DNA of 51,468 nucleotides. It comes from Escherichia phage phiE31-2. The stretch is taken from sequence record PP988008.1; one strand, given 5' to 3'. Under the pieces are notes generated by a model that was given only the letters and a program-made list of their open reading frames with translations, did no database searches and was not told where the DNA came from. Positions 1-51,468 of the stretch are shown here, piece by piece (position 1 is the stretch's first letter; every line of letters begins with the position of its first letter). The position numbers were made by a program, and so were the translations under genes.

Positions 1-539
1 ACGGTCTAACCAACCAAATGGCTACATTCCTTGCAACAGGAAAGGCAAACTTTAAGAGCTTCGCAACGTCAATCATCCAAATGATTATCCAGATGATCAC
101 GAAGATGGTTATCTTTAATGCCATATCCGGTGCGATTGGCGGTGACACTTGGACGATTGGAAGCCTTCTTAAAAATGTTGGATTTGCAACTGGTGGATAC
201 ACTGGCGACGGCGGGAAGTATGAGCCAGCAGGTGTTGTCCATAAAGGCGAGTTTGTCATGACGAAGGAGGCCACGAAGCGGATCGGAGTTGGAAATCTTT
301 ACAAAATGATGCGCGGTTATGCAAATGGCGGCGTTGTTGGCGGCACTTCATACACTGGCGGCGGAGTTTCATCTGGAGCAACAAATCTTAATATTGGCGG
401 GATCAGCGTTGATATTAACAGCGGAAACGATCCGAAAGGGTTGGAGACTGGCGTAAAAATGATTTTCACTGATATGATTAAGCGATCCTGTACGCAAGGT
501 GGGGAAGTTTACGAATTTGTTATGTCTAAGCGGGGGTGA
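1..539 (+). CDS. tail tape measure protein, C-terminal segment (5' end outside window)
   Basis: Frame open from nt 3 to stop at 537-539; Gly-rich TMP-like C-terminus; directly followed by lambda-like M/L/K/I/J genes; in frame with 49335..51468 across the junction. Confidence 0.8.
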
Positions 540-892
540 TAGTGAAACTTGAGCAATTCAAATGGTGTACGCAAACGCAAGGAGGCGGCGGCACTATGAC
601 CACATCAAATAACGACAGGGAAATCTCATTTGGTAATGGTTACACGCAGGTTGCTTCAGGAGGGTTTAACACGGTACGCAGGGAGTTTTCCATTGTCTAT
701 GTGGGTAATGATTACCGAGATGTTGTTGACTTCCTGAATGGTCACAGGTTGAAGCCGTTTTTATGGTTTATGCCTGACGGTCAACCTGGTCTATTCAGGG
801 TGAAATCCGGTAGCGTTGGATTGACTCCAATATCAGCAACCGTTCAGGAAGTGAAAGCAACATTTACTGAGCAATTTACATCAATGCAATAA
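536..892 (+). CDS. minor tail protein (lambda gpM-like)
   Basis: 118 aa; FKW..FGNGY..FLW pattern resembles lambda M; GTG start overlaps TMP stop; alternative ATG at 596 preceded by AGGAGG. Confidence 0.7.
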
Positions 893-896
893 TTCA

Positions 897-919
897 AGCC
901 GCCTTTGTGCGGCTTTTTT
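897..919 (+). terminator. rho-independent terminator-like hairpin after M
   Basis: GCCGC-loop-GCGGC followed by TTTTTTATT. Confidence 0.55.
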
Positions 920-953
920 ATTGATGATACAATGCACGAAAGGAGGTGCAATT

Positions 954-1715
954 ATGGCTAATGAAACAACAGGTCGCGCGGATCTTGAAAATTGTCTGCA
1001 AAGCCTTTACCCTGGCGAGATTATCACGCTAATTGAAATTGACGGCACAAAGTTTGGCGCAAACATTTACCGCATACACAATGAGAACATCTCATACACT
1101 GCGGAAGAATTATTGCAGGCGCGAGAAACTGGAGTTCTTCCGCCGAAAGAGATTACATTCCGTGGTGAGGTTTACGGAGCGCGCCCGTTCGGAATATCTG
1201 GAATCAACTTCACAAGCAACGGAAAGGCTGATAAGCCACAATTGATACTATCAAACCTTGATAGCCAGGTGAGCGCGATGATTCGCAACTTTAACGGCAT
1301 GATGCAAGCTAAGGTTACAATCTGGATCACGCCAGCGGAATTAATGGGGAAAGATGGCAGCATTAAAGATGGAGCATCAAGAAAGCTGGTTTACTACATT
1401 GAGCGCCCAAGCCATTACAATAGAATGATGGCGAAATTTGACCTGACATCGCCTTATGATATGGATGGAATAATGATTCCTCCGCGAATAACTCAAAGCG
1501 TTTGTTATTGGGCGCAGCGTGGATGGTATCGAAGCGGAAAAGGTTGCGGATACAATGGATCGCGAATGTTTGACAAAGACAACAATCCTGTAACCGATCC
1601 ATCTCAAGACTTTTGCGCAGGAACTGTAACAGCGTGCAAACTTCGTTTTGGTGCAGATAAGCAGCTTGATTTTGGCGGTGCACCAGTAGCAAGCCTGTTA
1701 AGGAGAAATCAGTGA
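954..1715 (+). CDS. minor tail protein (lambda gpL-like)
   Basis: ATG preceded by AGGAGG; size and position after M; Cys-rich C-terminal region as in L-like proteins. Confidence 0.8.
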   Translation: MANETTGRADLENCLQSLYPGEIITLIEIDGTKFGANIYRIHNENISYTAEELLQARETGVLPPKEITFRGEVYGARPFGISGINFTSNGKADKPQLILSNLDSQVSAMIRNFNGMMQAKVTIWITPAELMGKDGSIKDGASRKLVYYIERPSHYNRMMAKFDLTSPYDMDGIMIPPRITQSVCYWAQRGWYRSGKGCGYNGSRMFDKDNNPVTDPSQDFCAGTVTACKLRFGADKQLDFGGAPVASLLRRNQ

Positions 1716-2446
1716 TGATTAGTGCAAAAATAAAACTTGAAATAATGCAGCACGTAAAAGATGAATACCCGCGCGAGGCGTGCGGGGTTATCACTCAAAA
1801 ATCACGCGTGCAAAAATACCACCGCATAACCAACGTGCATGATGATCCTGAAAATCATTTTGAGATGAACGCAATTGAATACGTTGAGGCGTGTGAAAGT
1901 GGCGAGCTTATTGCTGTTGTGCATAGCCACACTGGAGACGGGGCAAGTACAATTCCAAGCGCCCATGATACATGCATGTGTGATGAAATGGGTGTTTCAT
2001 GGGTTATTGTGTCATGGCCCGAAGGTGATATGAGAATCATTGAGCCTGAATCTCGTCCTCTGATTGGTCGCCCGTGGTCGCTTGGTGCGTATGATTGCTG
2101 GGGGCTTATTATGGCATGGCACAAGCAACATGGCGTTATCCTTAATGATTTCAGGAAACCATATGAATGGTGGAAGCCTGAGTACGGTGAAAATCTTTAT
2201 CAAGAAAATTATCTGAAAGAGGGTTTTGTTGAAACAGGAGAGCCGCCAAAACCTGGTGATATGGTTATCTTTCAGCTTTCCGCGCCAGTGTGGAATCATG
2301 CAGGCATTTATCTTGGCAACAATCAGTTGCTTCATCATGCCTTTGGTAAGTTGTCGAGGGTTGATTTGTATTCTGGATGGTATCAGGAACATGCAAAAAT
2401 GGTTTGTAGACATAAGGATCTGAAATATGACTTTGAAGGTAATTAA
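1715..2446 (+). CDS. tail assembly protein (lambda gpK-like; MPN/JAB plus NlpC/P60-like)
   Basis: ATG overlaps L stop (ATGA); HSH-x-D metal-binding-like motif (VVHSHTGDG) and C-terminal Cys/His peptidase-like region; synteny. Confidence 0.8.
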   Translation: MISAKIKLEIMQHVKDEYPREACGVITQKSRVQKYHRITNVHDDPENHFEMNAIEYVEACESGELIAVVHSHTGDGASTIPSAHDTCMCDEMGVSWVIVSWPEGDMRIIEPESRPLIGRPWSLGAYDCWGLIMAWHKQHGVILNDFRKPYEWWKPEYGENLYQENYLKEGFVETGEPPKPGDMVIFQLSAPVWNHAGIYLGNNQLLHHAFGKLSRVDLYSGWYQEHAKMVCRHKDLKYDFEGN

Positions 2447-3023
2447 ATTATCTGGATCTTTAGGGCGAAGATTTGGTGTATTTCATAAGCTGGCTGTTGA
2501 CTCATACCCTGAAGCAATCCGTGCGCTATCTTCGCAGGTGGAAGGATTCAAGGACTACATGCAAAGCGAAGTAGGATCGCGAATGCGTTACGCTGTATTT
2601 GTTGACGGTAAGAATGTAGGACAGCACGATGAAAAAGCGTGGCAATGCGCAAAGGAAGTGAGGATTATTCCAATCCCAACAGGTTCAAAGTCTGGCGGGT
2701 TGTTTCAGGTTGTTCTTGGCGCGGTTATTATGGCGACTGCATTTTTCACTGGCGGCGCTTCACTTGCTTTGATGGGCGCTTTTGCATCTTCTGCTTTCAT
2801 GATGGGTGGTGCTATGGTGCTTGGCGGAGTAATGCAAATGATCTCACCGCAGCAAGGAGGATCAAGATTGTCATCCCAATCAGCAAAAAACAAGCCGTCT
2901 TATGCTTTCGGTGGCGCTGTTAACACAACGGCAGCAGGATACCCAATACCATTGCCATATGGTCAAAGGACCGTCGGCGGAGCTATCTGGTCGGCTGGGA
3001 GTTATGCAGAAGATAAGGCTTAA
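2427..3023 (+). CDS. tail assembly protein (lambda gpI-like)
   Basis: 198 aa; hydrophobic Gly/Ala-rich C-terminal half typical of I-like proteins; overlaps K end; lies between K and J. Confidence 0.75.
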   Translation: MTLKVIKLSGSLGRRFGVFHKLAVDSYPEAIRALSSQVEGFKDYMQSEVGSRMRYAVFVDGKNVGQHDEKAWQCAKEVRIIPIPTGSKSGGLFQVVLGAVIMATAFFTGGASLALMGAFASSAFMMGGAMVLGGVMQMISPQQGGSRLSSQSAKNKPSYAFGGAVNTTAAGYPIPLPYGQRTVGGAIWSAGSYAEDKA

Positions 3024-3031
3024 TATAAAAG

Positions 3032-3058
3032 AGTCGCGCGTTGCGCGGCTTTTTTTTT
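3032..3058 (+). terminator. rho-independent terminator-like hairpin between I and J
   Basis: CGCGCG inverted repeat followed by nine T. Confidence 0.6.
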
Positions 3059-3103
3059 GCCCGTATAATTCAACAAATCAAATAGCACAAAAGGTGAAAA
3101 AGC

Positions 3104-6100
3104 ATGGCTGAAAATATGATAACGGGCAGTAAGGGTGGATCATCAAAACCTTATGTTCCGAAAGAGATGGAAGATAACCTGATCTCAATCAACAAAATCA
3201 AAATCCTTCTTGCCGTTTCCGATGGTGAGTGTGATCCAGATTTTACACTTCGCGATCTGTATCTTGATGATGTTCCGGTAATTGCAGACGACGGAACTGT
3301 TAACTACCAGGGTGTGAAAGCTGAATTTCGACCTGGAACGCAGACGCAAGATTACATCAAGGGGTTTACTGACACATCAAGCGAAGTGACGCTGGCGCGT
3401 GACATTACTACATCAAATCCTTATGTAATTTCTGTAACCAACAAAACATTATCGGCTATCAGAATCAAAATGCTAATGCCAACAGGCATTAAGCAAGAGG
3501 ATAACGGCGATCTTGTCGGAGTTAAGGTTACTTATGCTGTTGATATGGCTGTTGACGGAGACTCTTACAAAGAAGTATTGCGAGACACTATCGAAGGTAA
3601 AACGCGTTCCGGTTACGACAGAAGCCGAAGGATTGACCTTCCGGCATTTAATGATCGCGTATTGCTTAGGGTTAGAAGGGTTACGGCAGACAGCGCATCA
3701 TCTCGCGTTACTGATCTGATTAAGCTACAAAGTTACGCTGAGGTTATTGATGCAAAATTCCGTTATCCTCTGACTGGTCTTGTATACGTTGAATTTGACA
3801 GTGAGTTGTTCCCTAACCAGATCCCTAACATTTCAATCAAGAAGAAATGGAAGCTGATTAACGTTCCGAGTAACTACGATCCTGTTTTGAGAGAGTATCA
3901 TGGTTCATGGGATGGTACTTTCAAGAAAGCGTGGTCGAACAATCCGGCGTGGGTTCTTTATGACATTATCACAAACCAGCGATACGGATTAGATCAGCGA
4001 GAACTTGGTGTGCAGGTTGACAAATGGAGTCTTTACGAAGCGGCGCAATACTGCGATCAGAAAGTGCCGGATGGAAAAGGCGGTACAGAGCCGCGTTATC
4101 TATGCGACGTTGTGATTCAAAGCCAGATTGAGGCTTATCAGCTTATTCGTGATATTTGCTCAATCTTCCGAGGCATGAGCTTTTGGAATGGCGAGAGCTT
4201 GTCAATCGTCATTGATAAGCCGCGCGATCCGTCGTACATCTTCACCAATGACAACGTTGTTGATGGTGATTTTCAGTACACAACAGCAAGCGAAAAGAGC
4301 ATGTACACGCAGTGCAACGTGACGTTTGACGACGAACAAAACATGTATCAACAGGACGTAGAGGGCGTATTCGACACAGAGGCCGCATTGCGCTTTGGAT
4401 ACAATCCGACAAGCATAACAGCGATCGGATGTACACGCAGGAGTGAGGCTAATCGTCGCGGTCGATGGATACTAAAAACCAACTTGCGCAGCACTACGGT
4501 AAACTTTGCTACTGGACTGGAAGGCATGATCCCATCAATAGGTGATGTGATTGCTATTGCTGACAACTTTCACAGCAGCAACCTGAAGTTAAACCTATCA
4601 GGGCGCGTGATGGAAGTTTCCGGCTTGCAGGTGTTCGTTCCGTTTAAGATTGACGCGCGACCAGGTGATTTCATTATCATCAACAAGCCGGACGGAAAGC
4701 CAGTTAAGCGCACAATCTCAAAAGTAAGCGGTGACGGAAAAACCATTGAGCTAAACATTGGGTTTGGGTTTGAAGTTAAGCCGGATACAGTTTTTGCAAT
4801 CGACCGCACTGATATTGCATTGCAGCAATACGTTGTAACGAGTATCGGCAAAGGTGATGATGATGATGAATTTACATACTCCATCACGGCTGTTGAATAT
4901 GACCCGAACAAATACGACGAGATTGATTATGGAGTAAACATTGACGACAGGCCAACTTCAATTGTCCAGCCTGACACAATGGCAGCGCCTGAAAATGTGC
5001 AAATATCCTCATACTCGCGAATTGTCCAGGGTGCAAGCGTTGAAACAATGGTTGTGTCGTGGGATAAAGTACCTTACGCATCGCTGTATGAAATGCAATG
5101 GCGAAAGGGTGATGGCAACTGGCTGAATACACCACAGACAGCAAACAAAGAAATTGAGGTTGAAGGTATTTATTCAGGAAACTACCAGGTAAGGGTTAGA
5201 TCTGTTTCCGCTTCAGGTTCTACGTCTCCGTGGTCCAGAATTGTGACAGCATCACTGACTGGTAAGGTAGGAGAGCCAGGCGCGCCAGTTAACTTAACCG
5301 CATCCGACAATGAAGTGTTTGGCATTCGTGTTAAGTGGGGGATGCCAGAAGGGAGCGGAGACACTGCATACATTGAGCTTCATCAGTCGCCAGATGGAAC
5401 AGCGGAAAACTCAAGACTGCTAACGCTGATCCCGTATCCACAATATGAATACTGGCATGGAACGCTTCCGGCTGGTCATGTTGTATGGTATCGGATCAGG
5501 AGCGTAGACAGGATCGGTAACGTTTCCGGTTGGACTGATTTTGTTAGAGGTATGGCTTCAGATGATGTGGAGGCTGTTTTAGGAGATATTCTTGATAAGA
5601 TTTTTGATACTGAAGCAGGTCAGGATCTTAAAGAGAACGCCATTGACAGTGCAAACAAGATAAAGGACCAGGCGCAAGCAATCATCCAGAATGCTCTTGC
5701 TAATGATGCTGATATTAAGTGGACGCGAGTACAAAATGGAAAGCGAAAGGCTGAATATGGTCACGCGCTTGAGCTTATCGCCACAGAGACTGAGGCGCGA
5801 GTTACGCAGATTGAAGAATTGAGGGCGTCAATCGACGAGGATATTGTTTCAAGCATAAAGACAGTGCAGGAGGCTATCGCCACAGAATCTGAAACGCGAG
5901 CAACTCAAATAAATGCTTTGGATTCAAAATTCACAACTGAAATTGACGGTGTAAAACGCGATACAGCCGCAAGCATTAATCAGGTGAATCAAACCATTGC
6001 CAATGAGTCAGAAGCGCGCGCGCAGGCCGTTAACGCGCTTGATGCGAAGTTCACAAAGGAGATCGAAGATTTAAACGGAGTCATTAAGACTGAGGTTGAG

Positions 6101-6682
6101 GCTAACATCTCTGAAGTGAAACAGGCTATCGCTAATGAGACAGAAGCAAGGGTGCAGGCTGACCAAGCGTTAACAGCTAAGTTCGGAGACGTTGAATCTG
6201 CATTAGCTCAAAAACTTGATTCGTGGGCTAACGTTGATTCGGTTGGCGCTAAGTACGCCATGAAATTGGGCCTTACTTACAACGGGCAGAAGTACAGCGC
6301 AGGAATGGTAATGCAGCTTTCTCAGAGTTCATCCGGCCTTATCTCGCAAATTTTGTTTGATGCGAATAGGTTTGCGATTATGACTAGCTCGACTGGCGGA
6401 GTGTATACGCTGCCTTTCGTTGTTGAAAATAACCAGGTATTCATCAATAGCTTGTTAGTTAAAAACGGATCAATAAACAATGCGATGATCGGTAACTTCA
6501 TCCAATCAAACAATTACGTTTGGAATCAAACAGGATGGAGGTTGGATAAAAACGGCACGTTTGAAAATTATGGTTCTACTCCTGGAGAGGGAGCCATGAA
6601 AATGACAAACGAAACGATCAGCGTTAGGGATGCAAACGGCGTTTTGCGTGTTCAGATTGGGCGTATCACAGGTTATTGGTAA
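3104..6682 (+). CDS. central tail fiber / host specificity protein (lambda gpJ-like)
   Basis: 1192 aa ORF after I; RBS AAGGTGA; coiled-coil repeat region in C-terminal third; position in tail module. Confidence 0.85.
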   Translation: MAENMITGSKGGSSKPYVPKEMEDNLISINKIKILLAVSDGECDPDFTLRDLYLDDVPVIADDGTVNYQGVKAEFRPGTQTQDYIKGFTDTSSEVTLARDITTSNPYVISVTNKTLSAIRIKMLMPTGIKQEDNGDLVGVKVTYAVDMAVDGDSYKEVLRDTIEGKTRSGYDRSRRIDLPAFNDRVLLRVRRVTADSASSRVTDLIKLQSYAEVIDAKFRYPLTGLVYVEFDSELFPNQIPNISIKKKWKLINVPSNYDPVLREYHGSWDGTFKKAWSNNPAWVLYDIITNQRYGLDQRELGVQVDKWSLYEAAQYCDQKVPDGKGGTEPRYLCDVVIQSQIEAYQLIRDICSIFRGMSFWNGESLSIVIDKPRDPSYIFTNDNVVDGDFQYTTASEKSMYTQCNVTFDDEQNMYQQDVEGVFDTEAALRFGYNPTSITAIGCTRRSEANRRGRWILKTNLRSTTVNFATGLEGMIPSIGDVIAIADNFHSSNLKLNLSGRVMEVSGLQVFVPFKIDARPGDFIIINKPDGKPVKRTISKVSGDGKTIELNIGFGFEVKPDTVFAIDRTDIALQQYVVTSIGKGDDDDEFTYSITAVEYDPNKYDEIDYGVNIDDRPTSIVQPDTMAAPENVQISSYSRIVQGASVETMVVSWDKVPYASLYEMQWRKGDGNWLNTPQTANKEIEVEGIYSGNYQVRVRSVSASGSTSPWSRIVTASLTGKVGEPGAPVNLTASDNEVFGIRVKWGMPEGSGDTAYIELHQSPDGTAENSRLLTLIPYPQYEYWHGTLPAGHVVWYRIRSVDRIGNVSGWTDFVRGMASDDVEAVLGDILDKIFDTEAGQDLKENAIDSANKIKDQAQAIIQNALANDADIKWTRVQNGKRKAEYGHALELIATETEARVTQIEELRASIDEDIVSSIKTVQEAIATESETRATQINALDSKFTTEIDGVKRDTAASINQVNQTIANESEARAQAVNALDAKFTKEIEDLNGVIKTEVEANISEVKQAIANETEARVQADQALTAKFGDVESALAQKLDSWANVDSVGAKYAMKLGLTYNGQKYSAGMVMQLSQSSSGLISQILFDANRFAIMTSSTGGVYTLPFVVENNQVFINSLLVKNGSINNAMIGNFIQSNNYVWNQTGWRLDKNGTFENYGSTPGEGAMKMTNETISVRDANGVLRVQIGRITGYW

Positions 6683-6688
6683 AAGCAA

Positions 6689-7331: not shown

Positions 7332-7332
7332 G

Positions 7333-8062: not shown

Positions 8063-8190
8063 ATAAATCAATAAGTTAGTAGTATATATATTTATATTTG
8101 TTCTTTATTGTTATCTATGTTTTGTGTGATTTTGTGTGTCTGGTGATTTTTCTGTGATTATGTATGTGTCAGTGGTTGTGTGTGTCTATA
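8063..8190. repeat. AT-rich conserved core plus GTGAT(T) iteron cluster, copy A
   Basis: ~50-bp core (ATAAATCAATAAGTTAGT...ATTTATATTTGTT) ~85-90% identical by eye to 30350..30399; followed by repeated GTGATTTT/GGTGATTTTT units. Confidence 0.6.
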
Positions 8191-13002: not shown

Positions 13003-13024
13003 TGTGATTAAATTTTGTTATTTT

Positions 13025-13672: not shown

Positions 13673-13674
13673 GA

Positions 13675-15908: not shown

Positions 15909-16007
15909 GCGTTTTCTCCAATGTTGCATGTTAATGTCAATGCAGATAATAGCATTTGCTAAGGCAAAAAAAAACCCCGCAATGCGGGGTAAAAGTAGCA
16001 GTGACAT

Positions 16008-17558: not shown

Positions 17559-19598
17559 ATGATTCCAAACATTGAAAAGCAAATATCAGCACTTGGTGAA
17601 GCGGTAATTAAATCCATTCAGGAGCGATTCACTGTTGGCGAGATTGTGCCTTACCCTTACCAGTGCATTGCATACGCTGAGATCGCAAAGCGTATGAAAA
17701 ATTATGAGCATCCATTCTTTGTTAAAGCGTCCGTATCTGCTGGCAAAACATTGATGTTTGCAATGGTTGCTCACCAGTGCCGGAAAATGGGCTTAAAAAT
17801 GATGGTACTTGCTCGCCAGGCTGAGATTGTGGATCAGGATTCTGAAGAGATAACAAATCTTGGTGTGCCGAACTCCATCTATTGTGCAGGACTGAAGACA
17901 AAAAGCGCATACTTTCCGATCGTTGTTGGTTCTGAGGGAACTGTAGTTAATGGACTTTTTAAAGCGCTTGGCGACTATGTTCCGCACGTTATCGGGATTG
18001 ACGAGTGTCACCAGGTGGATTGGGAAGACCTTGCCGACGCAATAGAGAAAGACGAATCATTTTTACAAATGACTACGAAGAAAGGCGAAAAAGTACCAAA
18101 TCCAGATTATGACATAGCGAGCGATAACGAATGCGAAGAGTTCCTGATTGGTGAGGATGGCTTGCCAATGGAGGGAACAGGTCGCACACAATACACTGTC
18201 ATTATCATGGAAATGATGCGCCGCTGCCGGAAAACATATGGTCATGAACTACGCATATTTGGTATGACTGGTTCTGAGTTTCGCGGCGTAGTCCCGATCC
18301 TGGTAGAAGACAAAAAACAAAAAGGATTTTGGCGTGAACAGGTTACTAATATTGACACCAACTACCTGATCAAATTCGGTTCTGTTGTGCCAACAAATTT
18401 TGGCGACGTTGGCGATCTAGGGTATGACCTTTCAGAGTTTGAGGCATCCAGCGAGGATGGCGTTGCAGACTTTGACGCTAAAACGCTTCGCAGGATGGAA
18501 CAAAAAATTCATGAAGAAGCGACCATGACAAAGAGCATCATGGCGAAAGTTCACGAGATCTGTAAAAACCGCAACGGCGTACTTGTGACATGTGCAGGAG
18601 AAAGGCATTGCAAAGAGGCAGCGGCAGCGTTGCCACTTGGAACTACTTACAGGATCATTACTGGTAAGACTGGCGACAATCAGCGCAAGGAGTGGTTGAG
18701 GGAAGCATACGAAGGGAAGGTAAAATACATCTTCCAGGTTCAGGCGCTAACTACTGGCGTTAACGTGCCGTTTTGGGATACGTCTGTTATTCTGCGTAAG
18801 ATTGGATCGCTAACTTTGCTGATTCAGCTTTTAGGACGAGGAATGCGACTTCTTAAGAAATGGCATAAGGAACAAGGCTTCAAGAAAGATGATCACCTTG
18901 TTATGGATTTTTCAGGAACGATGGACGAGTTAGGTGAGCTTTATTTTGATCCGATACTTGAACAGGCGCAACATCAGAAGCGATTCAGGAACGGTAAAGA
19001 TCCGAAGCCTTGTCCTGTTTGCGGAACTCTTAACAGCTATTACGCTCGTCGTTGTATGCACGTAGACGAAAACGGAAACAGATGTGAGTGGTTCTTTAAA
19101 TTCAGGACATGTGATGATCAGATTGACCCGCGCACTAAAAAGATTATTCAGCGCGGTTGTGGAACGAAAAATGATATTGCGGCCAGGGTATGCAGACATT
19201 GCGACATGTCATTGATTGACCCTAACGAGAAATTAAGCGGAAAGCACTACACAAAAAACGACTGGTTCCAGGTGCAATCTTTCTCGGTTGACATGACGAA
19301 AAACCAGAAAGGGATAATATTTAATTATGAGCTTTCCGATGGCATAGATACTTTCAGAGCGCGGGAAATATTTTTCCCTGAATCAGAAAGCCAGATTTGC
19401 CGCGCAAAATGGAGAAATGTTGCTCTTAAGCACATACCGGATCGCCGTATTGCTGGCATGGTGGCGAGCTATCGTAATGCACGAAAAATAATGCAATATG
19501 TGAATCACATCATGCCTCCATCGCGTGTTACTCACAGAAAGACTAGTAAGGGAGAAGATAATTTGTACAAGAAGGACTTTAATTATGGCAATGACTGA
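17559..19598 (+). CDS. DNA helicase (superfamily 2, DEAD/DEAH-like)
   Basis: Walker A SAGKT, motif II DECH, C-terminal Zn-ribbon-like CxxC pairs; start uncertain (ATG 17559 chosen downstream of promoter-like element, alternatives 17511/17535). Confidence 0.8.
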   Translation: MIPNIEKQISALGEAVIKSIQERFTVGEIVPYPYQCIAYAEIAKRMKNYEHPFFVKASVSAGKTLMFAMVAHQCRKMGLKMMVLARQAEIVDQDSEEITNLGVPNSIYCAGLKTKSAYFPIVVGSEGTVVNGLFKALGDYVPHVIGIDECHQVDWEDLADAIEKDESFLQMTTKKGEKVPNPDYDIASDNECEEFLIGEDGLPMEGTGRTQYTVIIMEMMRRCRKTYGHELRIFGMTGSEFRGVVPILVEDKKQKGFWREQVTNIDTNYLIKFGSVVPTNFGDVGDLGYDLSEFEASSEDGVADFDAKTLRRMEQKIHEEATMTKSIMAKVHEICKNRNGVLVTCAGERHCKEAAAALPLGTTYRIITGKTGDNQRKEWLREAYEGKVKYIFQVQALTTGVNVPFWDTSVILRKIGSLTLLIQLLGRGMRLLKKWHKEQGFKKDDHLVMDFSGTMDELGELYFDPILEQAQHQKRFRNGKDPKPCPVCGTLNSYYARRCMHVDENGNRCEWFFKFRTCDDQIDPRTKKIIQRGCGTKNDIAARVCRHCDMSLIDPNEKLSGKHYTKNDWFQVQSFSVDMTKNQKGIIFNYELSDGIDTFRAREIFFPESESQICRAKWRNVALKHIPDRRIAGMVASYRNARKIMQYVNHIMPPSRVTHRKTSKGEDNLYKKDFNYGND

Positions 19599-28454: not shown

Positions 28455-28484
28455 TATGCAATCCTCATTATATTTGGCGTGGTA

Positions 28485-28526
28485 ACTATACCAGGTTTGA
28501 GAAATATTGTTTAGCAATTCGTGCTA
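28485..28526 (-). promoter_or_regulatory. conserved-motif promoter-like element (variant)
   Basis: Minus strand TAGCACGAATTGCTAAAC - ~18 nt - TATAGT. Confidence 0.45.
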
Positions 28527-28628
28527 TTAGTTGAAATAGCTATGGCGCTTTGCTCGCTTGCCGTCTCCACCATAATGATCATTAGAAACGGCAATCATCC
28601 AGGCATTATGGAATATTATTAGCTTCAT

Positions 28629-28910
28629 CTAATTAATGCCAACAACGTTAAAACTTACAGATTTTGTTGCGCTAAATACATACGCTTCAACAGCTTCACC
28701 AAATACACGAATTTTTCCATAGCCGTACTGCGCATTCATATTGCGCCAAACCGTTCTGTTAGAACAGAACGCGTTACCAGTCTTGATAAGATTATCCATC
28801 TCTTTTCTTAGGTCATGATAATCAAGCCAGAATCTATAAGCGCGTTGTTTAATGAGTTGCGCCTTGATGGTTTCGGCTGAGTTTTTAAAATCGCTGTTTT
28901 TGTAGGCCAT
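28629..28910 (-). CDS. hypothetical protein
   Basis: 93 aa; TAATG overlap with upstream gene. Confidence 0.5.
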   Translation of the reverse strand: MAYKNSDFKNSAETIKAQLIKQRAYRFWLDYHDLRKEMDNLIKTGNAFCSNRTVWRNMNAQYGYGKIRVFGEAVEAYVFSATKSVSFNVVGIN

Positions 28911-30269: not shown

Positions 30270-30349
30270 AATCAAGCCTCCGCACTTTTAGATAACAGAT
30301 TCGGCGTTCATCAACAAAAAGAACAAAATAAATTTTATATATATACCCA

Positions 30350-30520
30350 TAAAATCAATAAGTTAGTTATATATGTATTTATATTTGTTATTTACTGTTG
30401 AGCTTGTTCTATGGGTATATGGTGGTGTTGTATTGTTTGTGGTGATATGTATGTGTGATTGTATATTTTTTAATCAATGGTGATGCGTGGTGATTTTTGT
30501 ATGTATATATATGGGTATGG
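30350..30520. repeat. AT-rich conserved core plus GTGAT(T) iteron cluster, copy B
   Basis: Homologous core and four or more GTGAT units; lies in the divergent early control region. Confidence 0.6.
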
Positions 30521-30645
30521 GGGAATCCTCCGTCAACCAAGTCAACAAGGTCATTTTTAACAGAGAAACCAATGTCTTAACTGAAGCATTTTGTTATCTT
30601 TAAACGCGCCACATGCCAAAAATTGTTATTAAAACACAAAATATA

Positions 30646-30674
30646 TTGACATGTAGGAAAGGCAAGGCAATAAT
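30646..30674 (+). promoter_or_regulatory. sigma70-like rightward early promoter
   Basis: TTGACA - 17 nt - AATAAT upstream of first rightward early gene. Confidence 0.5.
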
Positions 30675-30710
30675 GCATCCAGTTTAAACGCAACAAAAGG
30701 AGTAGACGCC

Positions 30711-32965: not shown

Positions 32966-33196
32966 ATGTACATTAACAAGAAGATGAGATGCGTTTCCGT
33001 TAATTATGGTTGTGCTGGCATGTTCAAGCCTGGCGAAATCTATACGGCGCAAAAACTGAAATCATCAACCGGATCCTTTTACGTAAGCAACAGTAAAGGG
33101 CATCGCATGTTCCTGAACGGTGGCGAAGGCACTAAGGTTATGGCGCACGCTATGGTGATTGCTGAATTTGAGGAAGTGAAGGATGGAGACAAATAA
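32966..33196 (+). CDS. hypothetical protein
   Basis: 76 aa from ATG after GGGGA RBS downstream of promoter-like motif. Confidence 0.5.
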   Translation: MYINKKMRCVSVNYGCAGMFKPGEIYTAQKLKSSTGSFYVSNSKGHRMFLNGGEGTKVMAHAMVIAEFEEVKDGDK

Positions 33197-33404
33197 GCGC
33201 GTTAAACACAAGTTTATTGATCATCATGGCGATGCACTTGAGGTATACAAGTTCGGCGACCGTGTGTTTATTGATGGCACGTTTGAAGGTGGGCGCAGGC
33301 CGGATTTTAGGTCGATACTCACTATTGACCAGGTGCGCAAGCTGGCGGATAAGTTAAATGATCTGGCAGATGAAATCGAATACAAGCAAATTCATTTTAA
33401 TTGA
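33183..33404 (+). CDS. hypothetical protein
   Basis: 73 aa; overlaps upstream gene; GAGGAAG RBS. Confidence 0.5.
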   Translation: METNKRVKHKFIDHHGDALEVYKFGDRVFIDGTFEGGRRPDFRSILTIDQVRKLADKLNDLADEIEYKQIHFN

Positions 33405-33415
33405 TAGGTTTGATA

Positions 33416-36694: not shown

Positions 36695-36954
36695 TCACGA
36701 TTAACCTTTCAGAAGAACAAGCGCGCATTATGTTAGCGGCTTTTGGTTGGCGGGATGATGACGGTATTCAGGCAACGGTTAAAATTCCTGAGACAGTAGC
36801 GCGTGAAGTTTTTAGCCAGTTGGAGCGCGCATTTGTTCCTGTTGGCACTGATCAGGCAGAAACAGCAGCCTGGTTTGGTGAGAACGGATACCGCGATCAG
36901 CAGATTGAAGACTGGAAGCGCAAAAACGAGACTGCGGAGGATTCAGGATTATGA
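36691..36954 (+). CDS. hypothetical protein
   Basis: 87 aa; ATGA overlap with upstream gene. Confidence 0.5.
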   Translation: MITINLSEEQARIMLAAFGWRDDDGIQATVKIPETVAREVFSQLERAFVPVGTDQAETAAWFGENGYRDQQIEDWKRKNETAEDSGL

Positions 36955-38533: not shown

Positions 38534-39055
38534 ATGGCTAAAAACGTTGAGCCAGCAGTAAAGGCTTGCAATTTTAAAAAACTATATAATAAGCAATATG
38601 GCGATATAGCAAAAATGACAAAGGCGCACAAGTACACGCCGGAGCAGGTATTTGATCTGGCTGTTCGTTACTTTACGTGGGCTGAGGAAAACCATATACA
38701 GGCTGCGGAAACGGCATCCTTTCAGGGTGACGTATACGAAAGCAAGATTCACAAGCCGCGCGTGTTCACCTTAAACGGATTCCGATTATTCGCTGGCCTT
38801 TCTGCTTCCGTGCTTGAAAAATGGCGACGTGAGCCAGGATTCAGCGAGGTTATGGACTTTATCGACGGCGTTGTTTACGAGCAAAAATTCCAGCTTGCCG
38901 CAAACAATATTGTTAACGCCGGATTCATTGGTAAGGAGATCGGCATTGAAAAGCCAGCCACCGTTACCATTGAGAATAACACAAGCGCCAGCGTTGACGC
39001 TGTAACGGCGGAGGAAGTCAAAGAGGCGGTAATTGACATTCTGGAGAAGATATAA
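38534..39055 (+). CDS. terminase small subunit
   Basis: 173 aa from ATG with AAAGGAGGG RBS immediately upstream of and overlapping (TAATG) the large terminase gene. Confidence 0.6.
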   Translation: MAKNVEPAVKACNFKKLYNKQYGDIAKMTKAHKYTPEQVFDLAVRYFTWAEENHIQAAETASFQGDVYESKIHKPRVFTLNGFRLFAGLSASVLEKWRREPGFSEVMDFIDGVVYEQKFQLAANNIVNAGFIGKEIGIEKPATVTIENNTSASVDAVTAEEVKEAVIDILEKI

Positions 39056-40623
39056 TGCTTATTTGGGAAGACTTAACAGCGGCGCAAAAACGCGCCGTTA
39101 AGGAAATGAGCGAATATTCATTCGAAAAGATGATCCGCATTTGGTTTCAACTTCTCCAGGGGCAAAGGTTCTTAGGAAACTGGCATTTCAGTTACCTATG
39201 CAGCGAAGTTGAAAAAATAATCAAAGGCGAGTCACAGAACGTAATTTTCAACATAACGCCAGGCAGTGGTAAAACAGAGATATTCTCGATCCACATGTCA
39301 CCTTATGCGTCATTGAAAAGTAAGAAGGTGAGAAATCTTAATTTGTCGTTTAGTGATGGCCTTGTCCAGCAGAATAGCAACCGCATCAAAGAGATTATTG
39401 GTTCTCCAGAATGGCAGGAGCTATGGCCTGGAAAGTTGGCAAAGGCGAGCGCAAAGGATCTGATTGTAACCGATGGCGGCAAGGTTAAATTGCAAGTTAA
39501 CTCGCGTTCTATCGGTGGTCAGGTTACTGGTCTGCGTGGCGGCTACATGGACGATGGATTTACTGGTATGCTGGTTCTTGACGATCCAGACAAGCCGGAT
39601 GATATGCTTTCTAAGGTGAAGCGCGAAGCCGGACACATGCGCCTAAAGAACACGGTGCGATCGCGTCGAATGAAGGACACCACGCCAATTGTGATGGTTC
39701 AGCAACGTCTACACGTCAATGATTCAACATGGTTCATGACAAACGGCGGCATGGGCGGCATCCAGTTTAAGGTGGTTAGTATTCCGGCGCTCGTTACTAA
39801 GGAATATCGCGAAACGCTTCCTGACTGGTTAAAGCCTGAGTTTGATCGCGATGTTTTGTCCAGTAAGCCAGTGATGATTGATGGTGTTGCCCATTATTCG
39901 TTCTGGCCTGCTAAGGAAAGCGCGGAGGAATTACTTGCACTTCGAAATGCTGATCCGTACACGTTCGCTAGTCAGTATCAGCAACAGCCTGTTGCGCTTG
40001 GCGGTAACGTGTTTAAAACAGAGTGGTTCCAGTATTACGGCAGCAGCGAGAAATGCACGCTACCAAAACCGGATCGCTTTGAATATACATTTATCACGGT
40101 TGATACCGCGCAGAAAACAGGTGAGCTTAACGACTACTCCGTGATCTGTTATTGGGGGATGTATAAAGATCGTGTCTACTTCATTGATGGCGTTCGCGGA
40201 AAATGGGAAGCACCGGACCTTGAGACGAATTTTGTTGCATTCGTTAATCAGTGCTGGAAGCGCAATAAAGAATGCGGAACGTTGAGAAGGATTCATGTTG
40301 AAGATAAATCGTCTGGCACTGGTTTGATTCAGAGTGCAGCGAAAAGAATCATGATCAAGATCAATCCCGTTCAGCGCGATAAAGATAAGGTTACGCGAGC
40401 AATGGACGCAGCGCCAGTAATGCGCGCCGGACGCGTAGCACTTCCAGAATCACATCCTATGCTGGCTGAGATACTTGCAGAGGTTGCGGCTTTTGCTTAT
40501 GATGATTCAGCGCCACACGATGATATTGTTGATAACATCATTGATGCGGTTAACATTGAAATGAACATGGCAGATGATCCGGTTGGAAGAATGAAAAAAT
40601 TGGCAGGTTTGCGGAACAAATAG
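39055..40623 (+). CDS. terminase large subunit
   Basis: 522 aa; Walker A-like NITPGSGKTE; C-terminal RNaseH-like nuclease acidic motifs (VDTAQ..., DDSAPHDDIVD). Confidence 0.85.
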   Translation: MLIWEDLTAAQKRAVKEMSEYSFEKMIRIWFQLLQGQRFLGNWHFSYLCSEVEKIIKGESQNVIFNITPGSGKTEIFSIHMSPYASLKSKKVRNLNLSFSDGLVQQNSNRIKEIIGSPEWQELWPGKLAKASAKDLIVTDGGKVKLQVNSRSIGGQVTGLRGGYMDDGFTGMLVLDDPDKPDDMLSKVKREAGHMRLKNTVRSRRMKDTTPIVMVQQRLHVNDSTWFMTNGGMGGIQFKVVSIPALVTKEYRETLPDWLKPEFDRDVLSSKPVMIDGVAHYSFWPAKESAEELLALRNADPYTFASQYQQQPVALGGNVFKTEWFQYYGSSEKCTLPKPDRFEYTFITVDTAQKTGELNDYSVICYWGMYKDRVYFIDGVRGKWEAPDLETNFVAFVNQCWKRNKECGTLRRIHVEDKSSGTGLIQSAAKRIMIKINPVQRDKDKVTRAMDAAPVMRAGRVALPESHPMLAEILAEVAAFAYDDSAPHDDIVDNIIDAVNIEMNMADDPVGRMKKLAGLRNK

Positions 40624-47904: not shown

Positions 47905-48567
47905 ATGCATTTACCAAATGGATCGCAAATTTTCGTTGAGAGCAATCGCGGAAGCGAAATCCAAGCAACAGCAGTGTCAAACGCCAAAGATCCTGTTTTC
48001 ACTGTTGCATCTGGCGGCACTGCGTACAAGAAAGGTGATTATGTGATCATCACTGCGTCTTCTTGGGGTAAGCTGATTGATCGTGTTATGCGTGTAAAAG
48101 AAAACGGTCAAGAAACAAGCGTGACTCTTGAAGGCGTAGATACTACTGATCAGAACGTTTTCCCATCTGGCGGTACTGCATCTTTTGCCAAAATTGATGC
48201 ATGGACTGAGATCCCTTGCGTTCAGGATTTGTCGCAGGACGGCGGCGAACAGCAATACTACACTTATCAGTGTTTGGCAGACGATCAGGAACAGCAGTTA
48301 CCTACCTATAAGAGCGCCGTTTCTCTTACCTACACTTTTGCGCACGAATACGATAACGCGATCTATCCGTTACTTCGTGCAGCAGATGAATCCGGCGCTG
48401 TAACGGCGCTTCGTATGTATGTACCAAAAGCAAAAGAGATGCGTTGCTGGGCTGGTGTATTTTCATTTAACGAGATCCCACAAACGACAGTTAACGAAAT
48501 GGAAACCGTTTCCCTGTCTGTATCCCTGAAAGGTCGATTCACCTTCCTACCTTCTCAAGTATCATAA
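47905..48567 (+). CDS. major tail protein
   Basis: 220 aa with AAGGAG RBS; followed by strong terminator then G/GT chaperone genes and tape measure. Confidence 0.7.
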   Translation: MHLPNGSQIFVESNRGSEIQATAVSNAKDPVFTVASGGTAYKKGDYVIITASSWGKLIDRVMRVKENGQETSVTLEGVDTTDQNVFPSGGTASFAKIDAWTEIPCVQDLSQDGGEQQYYTYQCLADDQEQQLPTYKSAVSLTYTFAHEYDNAIYPLLRAADESGAVTALRMYVPKAKEMRCWAGVFSFNEIPQTTVNEMETVSLSVSLKGRFTFLPSQVS

Positions 48568-48633: not shown

Positions 48634-48652
48634 CTTTTAACAAAAAGTGCTA
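48634..48652 (+). promoter_or_regulatory. inverted copy of conserved motif upstream of gpG
   Basis: CTTTTAACAAAAAGTGCTA ending 14 nt before the gpG ATG. Confidence 0.4.
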
Positions 48653-48666
48653 TCAAGGGGAAAGAA

Positions 48667-48984
48667 ATGTCAAAAATGAAATTGACGATTGGGCCGCTTC
48701 CTGACTTTAAATTACCAGTGAAATTTGCAATGCCTAACGGAGAAGATCAAACAATTATCTTCACAGTTCGCCACCGCAAAACAAGTGAGATTCACGAGCG
48801 CTACACGTCAGATACTCCAATGAGCGATGTTGAAATGATCACCTTCCTTGCTTCCGGTTGGAATCTTGATGATGAATTTAACGAAGAAAATATTAAACAG
48901 CTTCTTGATTACTACCCAGCGACAGCAATCGGATTAACTAGCGCATACATGAAAGCGCTTGCGGGGCAGCGAGTAAAAAACTAA
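48667..48984 (+). CDS. tail assembly chaperone (lambda gpG-like)
   Basis: 105 aa immediately upstream of tape measure; ends at slippery A_AAA_AAC. Confidence 0.7.
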   Translation: MSKMKLTIGPLPDFKLPVKFAMPNGEDQTIIFTVRHRKTSEIHERYTSDTPMSDVEMITFLASGWNLDDEFNEENIKQLLDYYPATAIGLTSAYMKALAGQRVKN

Positions 48985-49295
48985 AAAGGGCGGTTTACCT
49001 GTTTTATCAGAAACCGCCGACAGATGCAGAGCTTGAGGCCGTTGGCCTTACAAGGGCAGACTATGAAGGAGAAGATCCGCCAGAGGTTATATTTGATGAA
49101 AGCATGATGCAATCATGGGATATATTTTGCGCAATGCAAACGCAATGGAGATGTTATGGCGGTGGCGCTTACGGATTTGATTATAATGTCTTGCCTATGC
49201 TTTTTGAGATTTACAAGGTTGAGGATCGCGAGATGGCGCTAAACGACTTGCGAATCATGGAGCAAAAAGCACTTGAAATGATGCATTCAAAATAA
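48667..49295 (+). CDS. tail assembly chaperone frameshift product (gpGT-like; -1 shift at 48975..48981)
   Basis: -1 frame after A_AAA_AAC stays open to stop at 49293-49295 and merges with ORF 49104..49295. Confidence 0.6.
48975..48981 (+). other. -1 programmed ribosomal frameshift slippery heptamer A_AAA_AAC
   Basis: X_XXY_YYZ heptamer 3 nt before gpG stop; -1 frame open for 104 further codons. Confidence 0.65.
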
Positions 49296-49316
49296 GCGCC
49301 TACGGGCGCTTTTTTA
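49295..49316 (+). terminator. terminator-like hairpin between GT and tape measure
   Basis: AGCGCC-TACG-GGCGCT then TTTTTT. Confidence 0.55.
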
Positions 49317-49334: not shown

Positions 49335-51468
49335 ATGTCAGAACAATACGCAGGCTTGACGCTTGGGGTTGACGTTTCTCAACTCAACAATGCTGTAAAG
49401 TCTTTGCAGCAATTCAAGAAGGCAAACGACGACGCAAAGGGAAGCGTTGAGAGTTTTGTTGATTCAGAGGTTGTTGCAAGACAAAGAGCCAAACAACTGG
49501 CTGAGGAATTGGCAAAGCAGAGGCAAGAATTTAAAGCAATTCAGTCGGCAATAGATCCGACAGCAAGCAAAATGGATAAGTTGCGCCAGGCTGCAACACA
49601 GCTTGATGCGCTTTGGAAAAAAGGAATTGTGCCGGATGATACATTCTTTGAGTTAGGATCAATTCTTGAGACGCAGCAAAATAAACTGATCGCAACGAAA
49701 AAAGCGCTAACTGAAGAAGGCCGCGCGGCGCTTGAGGAAGCAAAAAATAAGGCAAGAGCAGAGGCTGAGGCAAGAAAGTTTATTGCGGCATTGCAGGCGC
49801 AAGCTGACGCAGCGGAAAAAACGAAATCAGAGCTTGTCGAAATGAGAGCCGCACAACTTGGAGTCAGTGCAGAAGCTGCGCCATTTATTGCAAAAATGAA
49901 GGAGCAGGAAAAACAAGCCTCAAAACTTGGCGTTTCTATGGGGCAGTACAAGCAAGCAATGGCGCAATTGCCAATGCAGATCACTGACGTTGTTACTTCT
50001 CTTGCTTCAGGTATGCCAGTATGGATGATCGCAATCCAGCAGGGTGGGCAAATCAAGGACTCATTCGGCGGTGTTGCTAATACGTTTAAAGCGCTAATGA
50101 CATTTGTCACGCCTTTAAGTGTAGGAATGACGGCGCTGACTGGTGCTCTTGGTTATGCTGCATATAATGCATACAAAGCAAATGCACAATTGAAGGAGAT
50201 TACAAAAACCGTTCAGGAGGCAACAGGTCTTTCCGGTGAGTTTGCAGAGCGGATCGCAACTGGAATCCAGGCGCTATCTGACAAGACAGGAGAGAGCGCA
50301 GACAATATCGCAAAGGCTTACATAAGCACTAAGGATGGAGCAAGCGAGGCTATACAAAAACTCGTCGATGTTGGATTTACCTATGACGAAGCAAAGGCAA
50401 AAGTAAATGAATACAAAAACGCATCAAGTTTTGTAAGTCTTAACAATGAAATTGCTGATCACAAAAACAAAGTTCTTGAGCTTGGCGATTCATGGTATGC
50501 GGTCTTAAAAGCAAAACGTGATTATGCTTCACCGTCCGGCGGGCTGTTGGGGAAAGAGCTTGGTTATGTGAATCCAATGCTGCAATTTGCGAAGAACACC
50601 TATGAGGATATAGGAAAGATTGTAAAAGATGCGAATAAGGATATGGCGGAACGAGCAGCACGCATCGACAGAGAAAACCTTTCCTTAAACAGAGTTCGAG
50701 CGGCGCAAGAGGCTTTAAACAAAGCCATAGAGGATCAGAAGAACGTAGCAAGGACAGCAGACGAAGAGTTGAAAAAGCGCGCGGCTGAGAACGTGGAGTT
50801 CAGGCGAAAAGAGCTTGAAGAGGCGAAGAAGGCGCAGCAGCAAAAGGAAAAAGTTGGTGGAGTTGTAAAAGCACCAACAGAGCAGCTTGATAAGGAGCTA
50901 TATGTTCTCAAGGCGCAACTTGAAACGCTGAAAGAGCACCGAACTGTAAATGATGTTATTTCACGCCAGAGGCAATCTTTGTGGAGCATTGAAAAGCAGA
51001 TCCAGATCCTTGAGGAAGCGCAAAGTAAACGCAAGCTGACAAAAGCGGAACAGGCGTTACTAAACGAGCAAAAAGCAGTTATTGCTATGGCAAAAGAAAA
51101 GGCAGAGATAGGCGATCAGATTGTTTTGCAACAGAGAAAGAACAAGCAATACCAGGAAGGGCTTAAATTCATTCAGCAAACATCAGATGCTATTGACGCT
51201 ATGAACTTGCGACAGTCTGGAGCTACAGATCTGCAAATCCAGCGAGAGCTTGAGTTGAAGAAGTTGCGAACTGATTATGTTGCTGGCGGCGGTAGTATCG
51301 ACGATGAAATTTATCAGCAGATGGAAGCAAAGCTGAAGGAGTATTACGCCACTGAGGATCAGCTTAGAAATAACTGGATTGCAGGAGCAAAAAACGCATG
51401 GGAGGTTTACGGACAAGATGCAATGGATATGTACGGCAACGTGCAAGATATTGCAAGCGAGGCGCTCA
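49335..51468 (+). CDS. tail tape measure protein, N-terminal segment (3' end runs off window)
   Basis: ATG with GGAGG RBS; open through window end; Ala/Lys/Glu/Gln-rich coiled-coil typical of TMP; after G/GT. Confidence 0.85.
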   Translation, partial: MSEQYAGLTLGVDVSQLNNAVKSLQQFKKANDDAKGSVESFVDSEVVARQRAKQLAEELAKQRQEFKAIQSAIDPTASKMDKLRQAATQLDALWKKGIVPDDTFFELGSILETQQNKLIATKKALTEEGRAALEEAKNKARAEAEARKFIAALQAQADAAEKTKSELVEMRAAQLGVSAEAAPFIAKMKEQEKQASKLGVSMGQYKQAMAQLPMQITDVVTSLASGMPVWMIAIQQGGQIKDSFGGVANTFKALMTFVTPLSVGMTALTGALGYAAYNAYKANAQLKEITKTVQEATGLSGEFAERIATGIQALSDKTGESADNIAKAYISTKDGASEAIQKLVDVGFTYDEAKAKVNEYKNASSFVSLNNEIADHKNKVLELGDSWYAVLKAKRDYASPSGGLLGKELGYVNPMLQFAKNTYEDIGKIVKDANKDMAERAARIDRENLSLNRVRAAQEALNKAIEDQKNVARTADEELKKRAAENVEFRRKELEEAKKAQQQKEKVGGVVKAPTEQLDKELYVLKAQLETLKEHRTVNDVISRQRQSLWSIEKQIQILEEAQSKRKLTKAEQALLNEQKAVIAMAKEKAEIGDQIVLQQRKNKQYQEGLKFIQQTSDAIDAMNLRQSGATDLQIQRELELKKLRTDYVAGGGSIDDEIYQQMEAKLKEYYATEDQLRNNWIAGAKNAWEVYGQDAMDMYGNVQDIASEAL

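What the first reader, a model, noticed from the sequence alone, without database searches (positions are those of the whole stretch)
49335..51468. Tape measure gene is split by the window ends with reading frame continuous across the junction
The ORF from ATG 49335 is open to the last base (711 codons plus 1 nt). Base 51468 plus bases 1-2 form an in-frame AAC codon and the frame continues to the stop at 537-539, giving 891 codons in total. This indicates the window is a circularised or permuted complete genome (51,468 bp) opened inside the TMP gene, consistent with headful packaging.
Basis: seen in the sequence. Interest (0 to 1): 0.5.

Follow-up and report, generated by a model that had tools for sequence, protein, structure and literature searches.

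The report
Tape measure gene split by record start
The window is one complete, circularly closing genome of a known T1-like coliphage (genus Hanrivervirus) that was opened in the middle of its tail tape measure gene, so the split gene is a bookkeeping artefact and not a biological feature.

Summary
The ORF from ATG 49335 runs to base 51468 (711 codons plus 1 nt). Base 51468 plus bases 1-2 form AAC, and the frame continues to TGA 537-539. The joined product is 890 aa.

The product is a genuine tape measure protein. It hits Pfam TMP_2 and Tape_meas_lam_C, and the second domain spans the junction. It is 99.6% identical over its full length to the Shigella phage pSf-1 TMP, and it is homologous to the structurally solved T1 and lambda TMPs.

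A 3-kb construct across the junction aligns in one piece, 3000 to 3000 bases, to every one of the 25 relatives listed. Window bases 51468 and 1 map to adjacent bases in Escherichia phage KarlJaspers (12937/12938) and pSf-1 (37987/37988). Eight independent metagenome or read-archive assemblies carry an intact 890-aa TMP. The window is collinear with KarlJaspers over 98% of its length, so it is one complete genome, rotated.

Headful packaging is plausible on separate evidence: a P22 gp3-type small terminase, a large terminase 65% identical to T1's, and published pac-headful experiments on T1 and TLS. Circular closure alone does not show it. The likely pac region is about 21 kb from the window ends. 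Verdict: already known, low interest.

The parts
49335..51468 (+). 5' part of the tail tape measure gene: codons 1-711 plus the first base of codon 712
   Evidence: for the ORF. Pfam TMP_2 at aa 194-356. Full-length 99% tblastn matches in one piece.
1..539 (+). 3' part of the same tape measure gene: last two bases of codon 712, codons 713-890 and the TGA stop at 537-539
   Evidence: Tape_meas_lam_C at aa 680-753 spans the junction. Lambda gpH (8iyk_H) aligns to aa 443-833 and the T1 TMP (9l9p_B) to aa 472-890, both across the junction.
48667..48984 (+). Tail assembly chaperone, the lambda G equivalent
   Evidence: Pfam Phage_TAC_4 1.8e-31. The identical protein occurs on eight independent contigs immediately upstream of an 890-aa TMP.
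48975..48981 (+). Slippery heptamer A AAA AAC for the -1 programmed frameshift that would give the G-T fusion chaperone
   Evidence: The -1 frame is open from 48942 to 49295. PHROG 17368 (213 aa) covers both ORFs.
48942..49295 (+). T-part of the chaperone, in the -1 frame (DUF1799)
   Evidence: Pfam DUF1799 1.5e-11.
49294..49311 (+). Terminator-like GC hairpin plus T run between the chaperone and the TMP start. T1 has an annotated terminator at the equivalent place.
   Evidence: T1 regulatory feature at 19508-19527.
47905..48567 (+). Tail tube protein, upstream synteny marker
   Evidence: Pfam Phage_tail_3 3.7e-64.
536..892 (+). Minor tail protein, the lambda M equivalent, overlapping the TMP stop
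   Evidence: Pfam Phage_min_tail 1.2e-18.
921..6682 (+). Distal tail genes in lambda order: L (921-1715), K (1712-2446), I (2427-3023) and J (3104-6682)
   Evidence: Pfam Phage_tail_L, Prok-JAB plus NLPC_P60, Lambda_tail_I, and FNIII-A_GpJ plus Phage_Tail_Tip.
38534..39055 (+). Small terminase subunit of the P22 gp3 family. The KarlJaspers record is opened at this ATG.
   Evidence: Pfam GP3_package 3.6e-09. PDB 3p9a 1.9e-15. 54% identity to T1 TerS. for the record start.
39055..40623 (+). Large terminase subunit
   Evidence: PHROG 38 6.8e-106. Terminase_6C. 65% identity over 520 aa to T1 TerL.
30276..30710 (.). AT-rich divergent intergenic region. It is the syntenic equivalent of the place where the T1 record, with its 2.8-kb terminal repeat annotation, begins, so it is the inferred pac region. 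This is not demonstrated.
   Evidence: T1 repeat_region 1..2800, between ST1(-) and ST77(+). Genome collinearity. Sequence shown.

Best explanation
The window is a complete, circularly closing assembly of a virulent T1-like siphovirus (Drexlerviridae, Tempevirinae, genus Hanrivervirus; closest relative Escherichia phage KarlJaspers). The sequence was linearised at an arbitrary point that falls between the first and second bases of codon 712 of the tape measure gene. Nothing biological happens at 51468/1. In the phage the gene is continuous and encodes an 890-aa tape measure protein. That protein is made downstream of a G/G-T frameshifted chaperone pair and upstream of the lambda-like M-L-K-I-J tail tip genes. 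The assembly closes on itself because virion DNA of this family is cut from concatemers by a pac-initiated headful terminase. This gives terminally redundant, partly permuted molecules that have no unique end for an assembler or a depositor to use. Gene continuity, genome completeness and terminase homology are shown here. The headful mechanism in this particular phage and the position of pac are inferred from T1 and TLS.
For: The ORF arithmetic is correct. The joined protein has TMP_2 and Tape_meas_lam_C domains, and the second spans the junction. It matches TMPs of 271 phage records over at least 80% of its length. The best match is 99.6% identical with 100% cover in one piece. A 3000-nt junction construct aligns 3000 to 3000 in one piece in all 25 listed relatives, and 79 records cover at least 80% of it. 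Window 51468 and 1 map to KarlJaspers 12937/12938 and to pSf-1 37987/37988, and 98.2% of the window is collinear with KarlJaspers. Against T1's 35%-identical TMP, the junction lies in a gapless conserved block...DIASEAL|NGLTNQM.... Eight independent assemblies have an 890-aa TMP with 6-18 ungapped substitutions, and the 120-nt junction is identical in two of them. The solved T1 and lambda TMPs align across the junction. There is no terminal overlap, no large internal repeat, and no promoter, terminator or repeat at the junction. Related records are opened at many different positions and in both orientations: the TMP lies at 5.5, 10.8, 13.3, 19.7, 20.8, 21.7, 22.5, 29.3, 35.9 and 37.4 kb, among others. 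For packaging, TerS is of the P22 gp3 type and TerL and TerS are 65% and 54% identical to T1's. The T1 record carries a 2.8-kb terminal repeat annotation. The literature reports pac-site headful packaging with partial permutation for T1 and TLS (PMC11447400), a circularly permuted genome for SU57 (PMC7718038), and no fixed termini for KanT1 (PMC13164509).
Against: No reads or virion-end data are available for this genome, so headful packaging and the position of pac rest on homology and synteny only. Circular closure alone would also be seen with other terminally repeated genomes. No DNA-level similarity was found between the T1 left end and window 30276-30710, apart from the shared dispersed 21-nt motif.
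Confidence: 0.96

Rival explanations
1. The window ends are genuine physical ends of the packaged DNA. This would mean a fixed or strongly preferred terminase cut inside the tape measure gene.
For: Nothing positive. Headful series do produce ends at positions other than pac, so a small fraction of virions may end anywhere (T1 and TLS biology).
Against: A fixed physical end would normally come with a terminal repeat or a cohesive end, and none is present. The junction is seamless against every relative examined. The inferred pac region is about 21 kb away. With about 1-3 kb of redundancy per headful and three to four headfuls per series (T1 repeat of 2.8 kb), series ends would fall within about 10 kb of pac, not at the TMP. 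Related records are opened at many unrelated positions.
Confidence: 0.02
2. The genome does close on itself, but the phage packages by fixed direct terminal repeats or cohesive ends rather than by headful. On this reading the reader's packaging inference is wrong.
For: Circularly closing assemblies are generally also obtained for terminally repeated genomes with fixed ends, so the junction does not discriminate. The large terminase gave no sequence-level match to any solved terminase.
Against: TerS belongs to the P22 gp3 family, the archetypal pac-recognition subunit. TerL is 65% identical to that of T1. T1 and TLS have been shown experimentally to use pac-initiated headful packaging. SU57 digests excluded cos ends. 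PhageTerm found no fixed termini in KanT1.
Confidence: 0.03
3. The window is an incomplete or misjoined contig whose two truncated coding ends agree in phase by chance.
For: Phase agreement alone has a one in three chance.
Against: The ends map to adjacent bases in two complete reference genomes. The window covers 98.2% of the window-to-KarlJaspers alignment in collinear order, with only 254-370 bp of small-ORF replacements. The length of 51,468 bp lies within the 46-52.5 kb range of relatives. The joined protein is exactly 890 aa, as in the eight independent assemblies examined and in the KarlJaspers and pSf-1 annotations.
Confidence: 0.005

Closest known systems
Escherichia phage KarlJaspers (MZ501090.1, BASEL collection Bas06; Hanrivervirus)
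   Same: The gene order is the same around the whole circle. The window and KarlJaspers are 51,468 and 51,474 bp. Six collinear blocks at 88-97% identity cover 98.2% of the window, which is about 95% overall identity. The TMP gene is 2673 nt in both.
   Different: The KarlJaspers record is opened at the terS start codon, which corresponds to window 38534, rather than inside the TMP. A few small early-region ORFs are replaced (window 28470-28907, 33181-33412, 36723-36950).
Shigella phage pSf-1 (NC_021331.1), exemplar of Hanrivervirus pSf1
   Same: The TMP is 99.6% identical with no gaps. The junction DNA is 98.3% identical over 3000 nt. The window ends map to adjacent bases 37987/37988.
   Different: There is no megablast match for window 5708-7823 (the J C-terminus and the genes after it) or for 13024-15602 (the lateral tail fibre). 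These are host-range modules, and coverage is 87%. The record is opened at yet another place, inside the tail fibre and primase region.
Escherichia phage T1 (NC_005833.1) and its tape measure protein (PDB 9l9p_B)
   Same: The genome architecture is the same. TerL, TerS and portal are 65%, 54% and 62% identical. The TMP is homologous end to end (E = 7e-175), with the junction in a conserved block. T1 also has the chaperone pair, then a terminator, then the TMP. It shares the dispersed 21-nt motif.
   Different: T1 belongs to a different subfamily (Tunavirinae). Its TMP is 957 aa against 890 aa and only 35% identical, with a divergent central region and a different stretch between aa 778 and 840. 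The T1 record is opened at the experimentally defined left (pac) end with a 2.8-kb terminal repeat annotation.
Lambda gpH tape measure protein (PDB 8iyk_H, 8iyl, 8k35)
   Same: The C-terminal half is homologous (query 443-833 to gpH 404-793, E = 8.9e-89). It includes the Tape_meas_lam_C domain that spans the junction. The G/G-T, H, M, L, K, I, J gene order is the same.
   Different: Lambda packages from cos sites, not by headful. The N-terminal half was not part of that alignment.

Membership tests
Tail tape measure protein (lambda gpH / T1 gp38 type) | Pfam TMP_2 and Tape_meas_lam_C domains score above their gathering thresholds | tested here: met
   TMP_2 scores 122 bits against a cut-off of 30.2. 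Tape_meas_lam_C scores 77.8 bits against a cut-off of 23, at aa 680-753, spanning the junction.
Tail tape measure protein (lambda gpH / T1 gp38 type) | The gene lies directly after a frameshifted tail assembly chaperone pair and before the distal tail genes | tested here: met
   Phage_TAC_4, then the slippery heptamer A AAA AAC, then DUF1799 lie upstream. M, L, K, I and J lie downstream.
Tail tape measure protein (lambda gpH / T1 gp38 type) | Full-length homology to tape measure proteins verified in virion structures | tested here: met
   PDB 9l9p_B (957 aa) at E = 4.5e-185 and lambda 8iyk_H at E = 8.9e-89.
Tail tape measure protein (lambda gpH / T1 gp38 type) | Protein length sets tail length | not testable with these tools
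   There are no virion measurements for this phage. At about 0.15 nm per residue, 890 aa would predict a tail of roughly 130-135 nm. This figure is an inference only.
Genus Hanrivervirus (Drexlerviridae, Tempevirinae) | At least 70% nucleotide identity over the whole genome to members of the genus | tested here: met
   About 95% overall identity to KarlJaspers. pSf-1 matches 87% of the window in blocks of 92-97% identity.
pac-initiated headful packaging (P22 / T1 type) | Small terminase of the P22 gp3 family | tested here: met
   Pfam GP3_package scores 37.2 bits against a cut-off of 29.4. PDB 3p9a matches at E = 1.9e-15.
pac-initiated headful packaging (P22 / T1 type) | Large terminase orthologous to that of a phage with experimentally shown headful packaging | tested here: met
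   65% identity over 520 aa to T1 TerL. T1 and TLS packaging experiments are cited in PMC11447400.
pac-initiated headful packaging (P22 / T1 type) | Virion DNA is terminally redundant and partly circularly permuted, with a submolar pac fragment | not testable with these tools
   This needs reads or virion DNA. The circular closure of the assembly is compatible but does not discriminate.
pac-initiated headful packaging (P22 / T1 type) | An identifiable pac site | tested here: inconclusive
   Only a syntenic placement at 30276-30710 could be made. There is no DNA similarity to the T1 left end beyond the dispersed 21-nt motif.
Fixed-end genomes (direct terminal repeats or cos) | An exact terminal repeat or a cohesive-end sequence at the record ends | tested here: not met
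   There is no shared terminal sequence of 8-300 nt. The ends lie inside a coding block that is continuous in all relatives examined.

The most novel reading that the evidence does not exclude
The 51468/1 position might not be arbitrary. It could mark a preferred secondary headful cut or a recombination hot spot inside the tape measure gene of this phage, so that a noticeable share of virions really carry a split TMP gene at their ends. Nothing in the sequence suggests this, but without reads it cannot be formally excluded.
Probability: 0.02. Interest if true: 0.2.

Novelty: already known. Interest (0 to 1): 0.05.

Why it matters
The practical value is for annotation. A linear gene caller run on this record would report two truncated TMP fragments, or miss the gene altogether. 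The record should be rotated before annotation and comparison, for example to the terS start at 38534 as in the BASEL records, or to the T1-equivalent left end near 30.3-30.7 kb. It also confirms that the window is a complete genome, about 95% identical to Escherichia phage KarlJaspers and so at the edge of the species threshold. It raises no new biological question.

Tried and rejected
(1) I tried an exact look-up of the joined TMP on public contigs. I replaced it with a look-up of the adjacent chaperone, which worked.

(2) I searched the large terminase against solved structures to classify the packaging type. There were no sequence-level matches, so I relied on TerS and on identity to T1.

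(3) I looked for DNA similarity between the T1 left (pac) end and the window to locate pac. Only the dispersed 21-nt motif matched, so pac is placed by synteny alone.

(4) I searched the literature for direct terminus data on a Hanrivervirus and found none. The evidence found concerns T1, TLS, SU57 and KanT1.

(5) The antisense ORFs inside the TMP gene (49541-50110, 50440-50751, 50735-51034, 51183-51446) have no Pfam hits. I regard them as by-products of the Ala/Glu/Lys/Gln-rich coiled-coil coding sequence.

(6) I checked for terminal overlap between the window ends and for large internal repeats that would indicate more than one genome length. Neither was found.

Full report
**Observation.**
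I read both ends of the window and joined them computationally. An ATG at 49335 follows a GGAGG ribosome-binding site and an in-frame stop. The frame stays open for 2134 nt to the last base, which is 711 codons plus one base. Base 51468 (A) plus bases 1-2 (AC) give an Asn codon, and the frame continues to TGA at 537-539. The joined product is 890 aa, or 891 codons with the stop. The two window ends share no direct repeat of 8-300 nt. Phase agreement by itself has a one in three chance, so the real test is homology across the junction.

**What the gene is.**
- The joined protein hits Pfam TMP_2 (aa 194-356, 3.6e-35) and Tape_meas_lam_C (aa 680-753, 6.5e-22). The second domain spans the junction at residues 711/712.
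- The neighbours are the canonical lambda-like tail module. Upstream lie the tail tube (47905-48567), the chaperone Phage_TAC_4 (48667-48984) and DUF1799 (49104-49295). Downstream lie the M, L, K, I and J homologues (536-6682).
- The chaperone ends in a slippery heptamer A AAA AAC at 48975. The -1 frame is open from 48942 to 49295, and PHROG 17368 (213 aa) covers both pieces. This is the conserved G/G-T frameshift that precedes tape measure genes.
- The protein is homologous to two tape measure proteins present in solved virion structures. These are a 957-aa chain, 9l9p_B (the same length as the T1 TMP), at 4.5e-185 and lambda gpH, 8iyk_H, at 8.9e-89. Both alignments cross the junction.

**Is the junction seamless?**
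- tblastn of the joined protein against 50,697 phage records gave 271 records covering at least 80% of it. The top 25 each cover 100% at 99.0-99.6% identity in a single piece, and the best is Shigella phage pSf-1.
- A 3000-nt construct made of the last 1500 and first 1500 bases aligned 3000 to 3000 in one piece, at 97.1-98.3% identity, in every one of the 25 listed records. In total 79 records cover at least 80% of it.
- Whole-genome blastn put window 1 at KarlJaspers 12938 and window 51468 at 12937. In pSf-1 the corresponding positions are 37988 and 37987.
- Against T1's TMP, which is only 35% identical, the junction falls in a gapless and strongly conserved block, DIASEAL|[10 protein letters not shown].
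- As an independent check I looked up the chaperone protein on public assemblies. Eight different metagenome or read-archive contigs of 50.4-52.4 kb carry it, and each has a called 890-aa TMP right after it. These TMPs differ from the joined window protein by 6-18 ungapped substitutions. The 120 nt around the junction are identical in two of the contigs.
- There is therefore no gap, insertion or duplication at 51468/1.

**Is the window a whole genome?**
- Six collinear blocks cover 98.2% of the window against the 51,474-bp KarlJaspers genome. The blocks wrap around the KarlJaspers record ends at window 38533/38534, which is the terS start codon.
- The uncovered stretches are 230-440 bp replacements of small early ORFs.
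- There is no internal repeat longer than about 110 nt.
- The window is therefore one genome equivalent of a Hanrivervirus (Drexlerviridae, Tempevirinae), about 95% identical overall to KarlJaspers. It is simply opened at a different point.
- Related records are themselves opened at many different places and in both orientations, with the TMP gene anywhere from 5.5 kb to 37.4 kb into the record. This is what one expects for genomes that have no unique end.

**Packaging.**
- Continuity across the junction shows only that the assembly closes on itself. It does not by itself distinguish headful packaging from other terminally repeated genome types.
- The separate evidence is as follows. The small terminase (38534-39055) belongs to the P22 gp3 family (Pfam GP3_package; PDB 3p9a, 1.9e-15). 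The large terminase, small terminase and portal are 65%, 54% and 62% identical to those of T1. The T1 record carries a 2.8-kb terminal repeat annotation at its left end.
- The literature reports pac-initiated headful packaging for T1 and TLS, with three to four headfuls per series and partial permutation (PMC11447400).
- For SU57 it reports a circularly permuted genome with cos ends excluded (PMC7718038). For KanT1 it reports no fixed termini (PMC13164509).
- I found no direct terminus data for a Hanrivervirus.
- The T1 record begins in the divergent intergenic region between the leftward gene ST1 and the rightward gene ST77. By collinearity, the equivalent place is window 30276-30710, about 21 kb from the window ends. 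This placement is an inference. The only DNA similarity to the T1 left end is a dispersed 21-nt motif.

**The junction itself.**
No promoter-like site, terminator-like site or repeat lies at or near 51468/1. The antisense ORFs inside the gene have no family matches.

**Verdict.**
The one caveat is that headful packaging is supported by terminase homology and by the family's literature, not by the junction. The feature is a linearisation artefact in a complete genome of a well-known phage genus. It is not novel, and its only consequence is practical: rotate the record before annotation.

Noticed in passing
window 48667-49295, with the slippery site at 48975-48981: The tail assembly chaperone ends in a canonical -1 slippery heptamer, A AAA AAC. 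The -1 frame is open from 48942 to 49295 (DUF1799). Related records annotate two separate small genes, or call them 'tape measure protein', rather than a G/G-T frameshift product of about 208 aa.
   Followed up: partly
window 17482, 20000, 21020, 24266(-), 26433(-), 27109(-), 29160(-), 30037(-), 31437, 31900, 32892, 34109, 36405, 48634(-): The 21-nt motif AATAGCACTTTTTGTTAAAAC occurs 14 times at up to 3 mismatches, against 0.01 expected by chance. In the copies whose flanks were printed, a CATAAT- or TATAAT-like hexamer follows about 17 nt later, so the motif looks promoter-associated. It is also present near the T1 left end, and the TLS paper reports 18 intergenic 21-base repeats. By ORF position, the copies at or before 36.4 kb appear to follow the local direction of transcription; this was not checked copy by copy. 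The copy at 48634-48654 lies on the minus strand inside the plus-strand tail gene cluster.
   Followed up: partly
window 30276-30710 and 8065-8174: The two divergent (strand-switch) intergenic regions share a 110-nt segment at 72% identity (30352-30461 and 8065-8174). The 30.3-30.7 kb region is very AT-rich, with GGTG/TGTATG-type short repeats. It is the syntenic equivalent of the T1 left (pac) end. Its function is not established; it could be a divergent promoter region, an origin or pac.
   Followed up: partly
window 536-892: The start of the M-like minor tail gene is annotated inconsistently among relatives. The KarlJaspers annotation corresponds to ATG 596 (98 aa) and the pSf-1 annotation to GTG 542 (116 aa). 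The Pfam Phage_min_tail profile aligns from its position 1 at residue 6 of the 118-aa version that starts at GTG 536. The longer form, which overlaps or abuts the TMP stop, is therefore probably the correct one.
   Followed up: partly
window 5708-7823 and 13024-15602: These stretches have no megablast match in pSf-1 but do match KarlJaspers. They cover the C-terminal end of the J-like tip protein plus the minus-strand genes after it, and the lateral tail fibre gene (13953-16007). They are likely host-range modules exchanged between otherwise 96-97% identical genomes.
   Followed up: no
window 49294-49311: A terminator-like hairpin (AAGCGCC-TACG-GGCGCTT followed by T6) sits between the chaperone genes and the TMP start. 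T1 has an annotated rho-independent terminator at the same relative position. This suggests conserved attenuation of transcription into the TMP and distal tail genes.
   Followed up: no
whole window: No tRNA genes were found. Overall GC content is 44.0%.
   Followed up: yes
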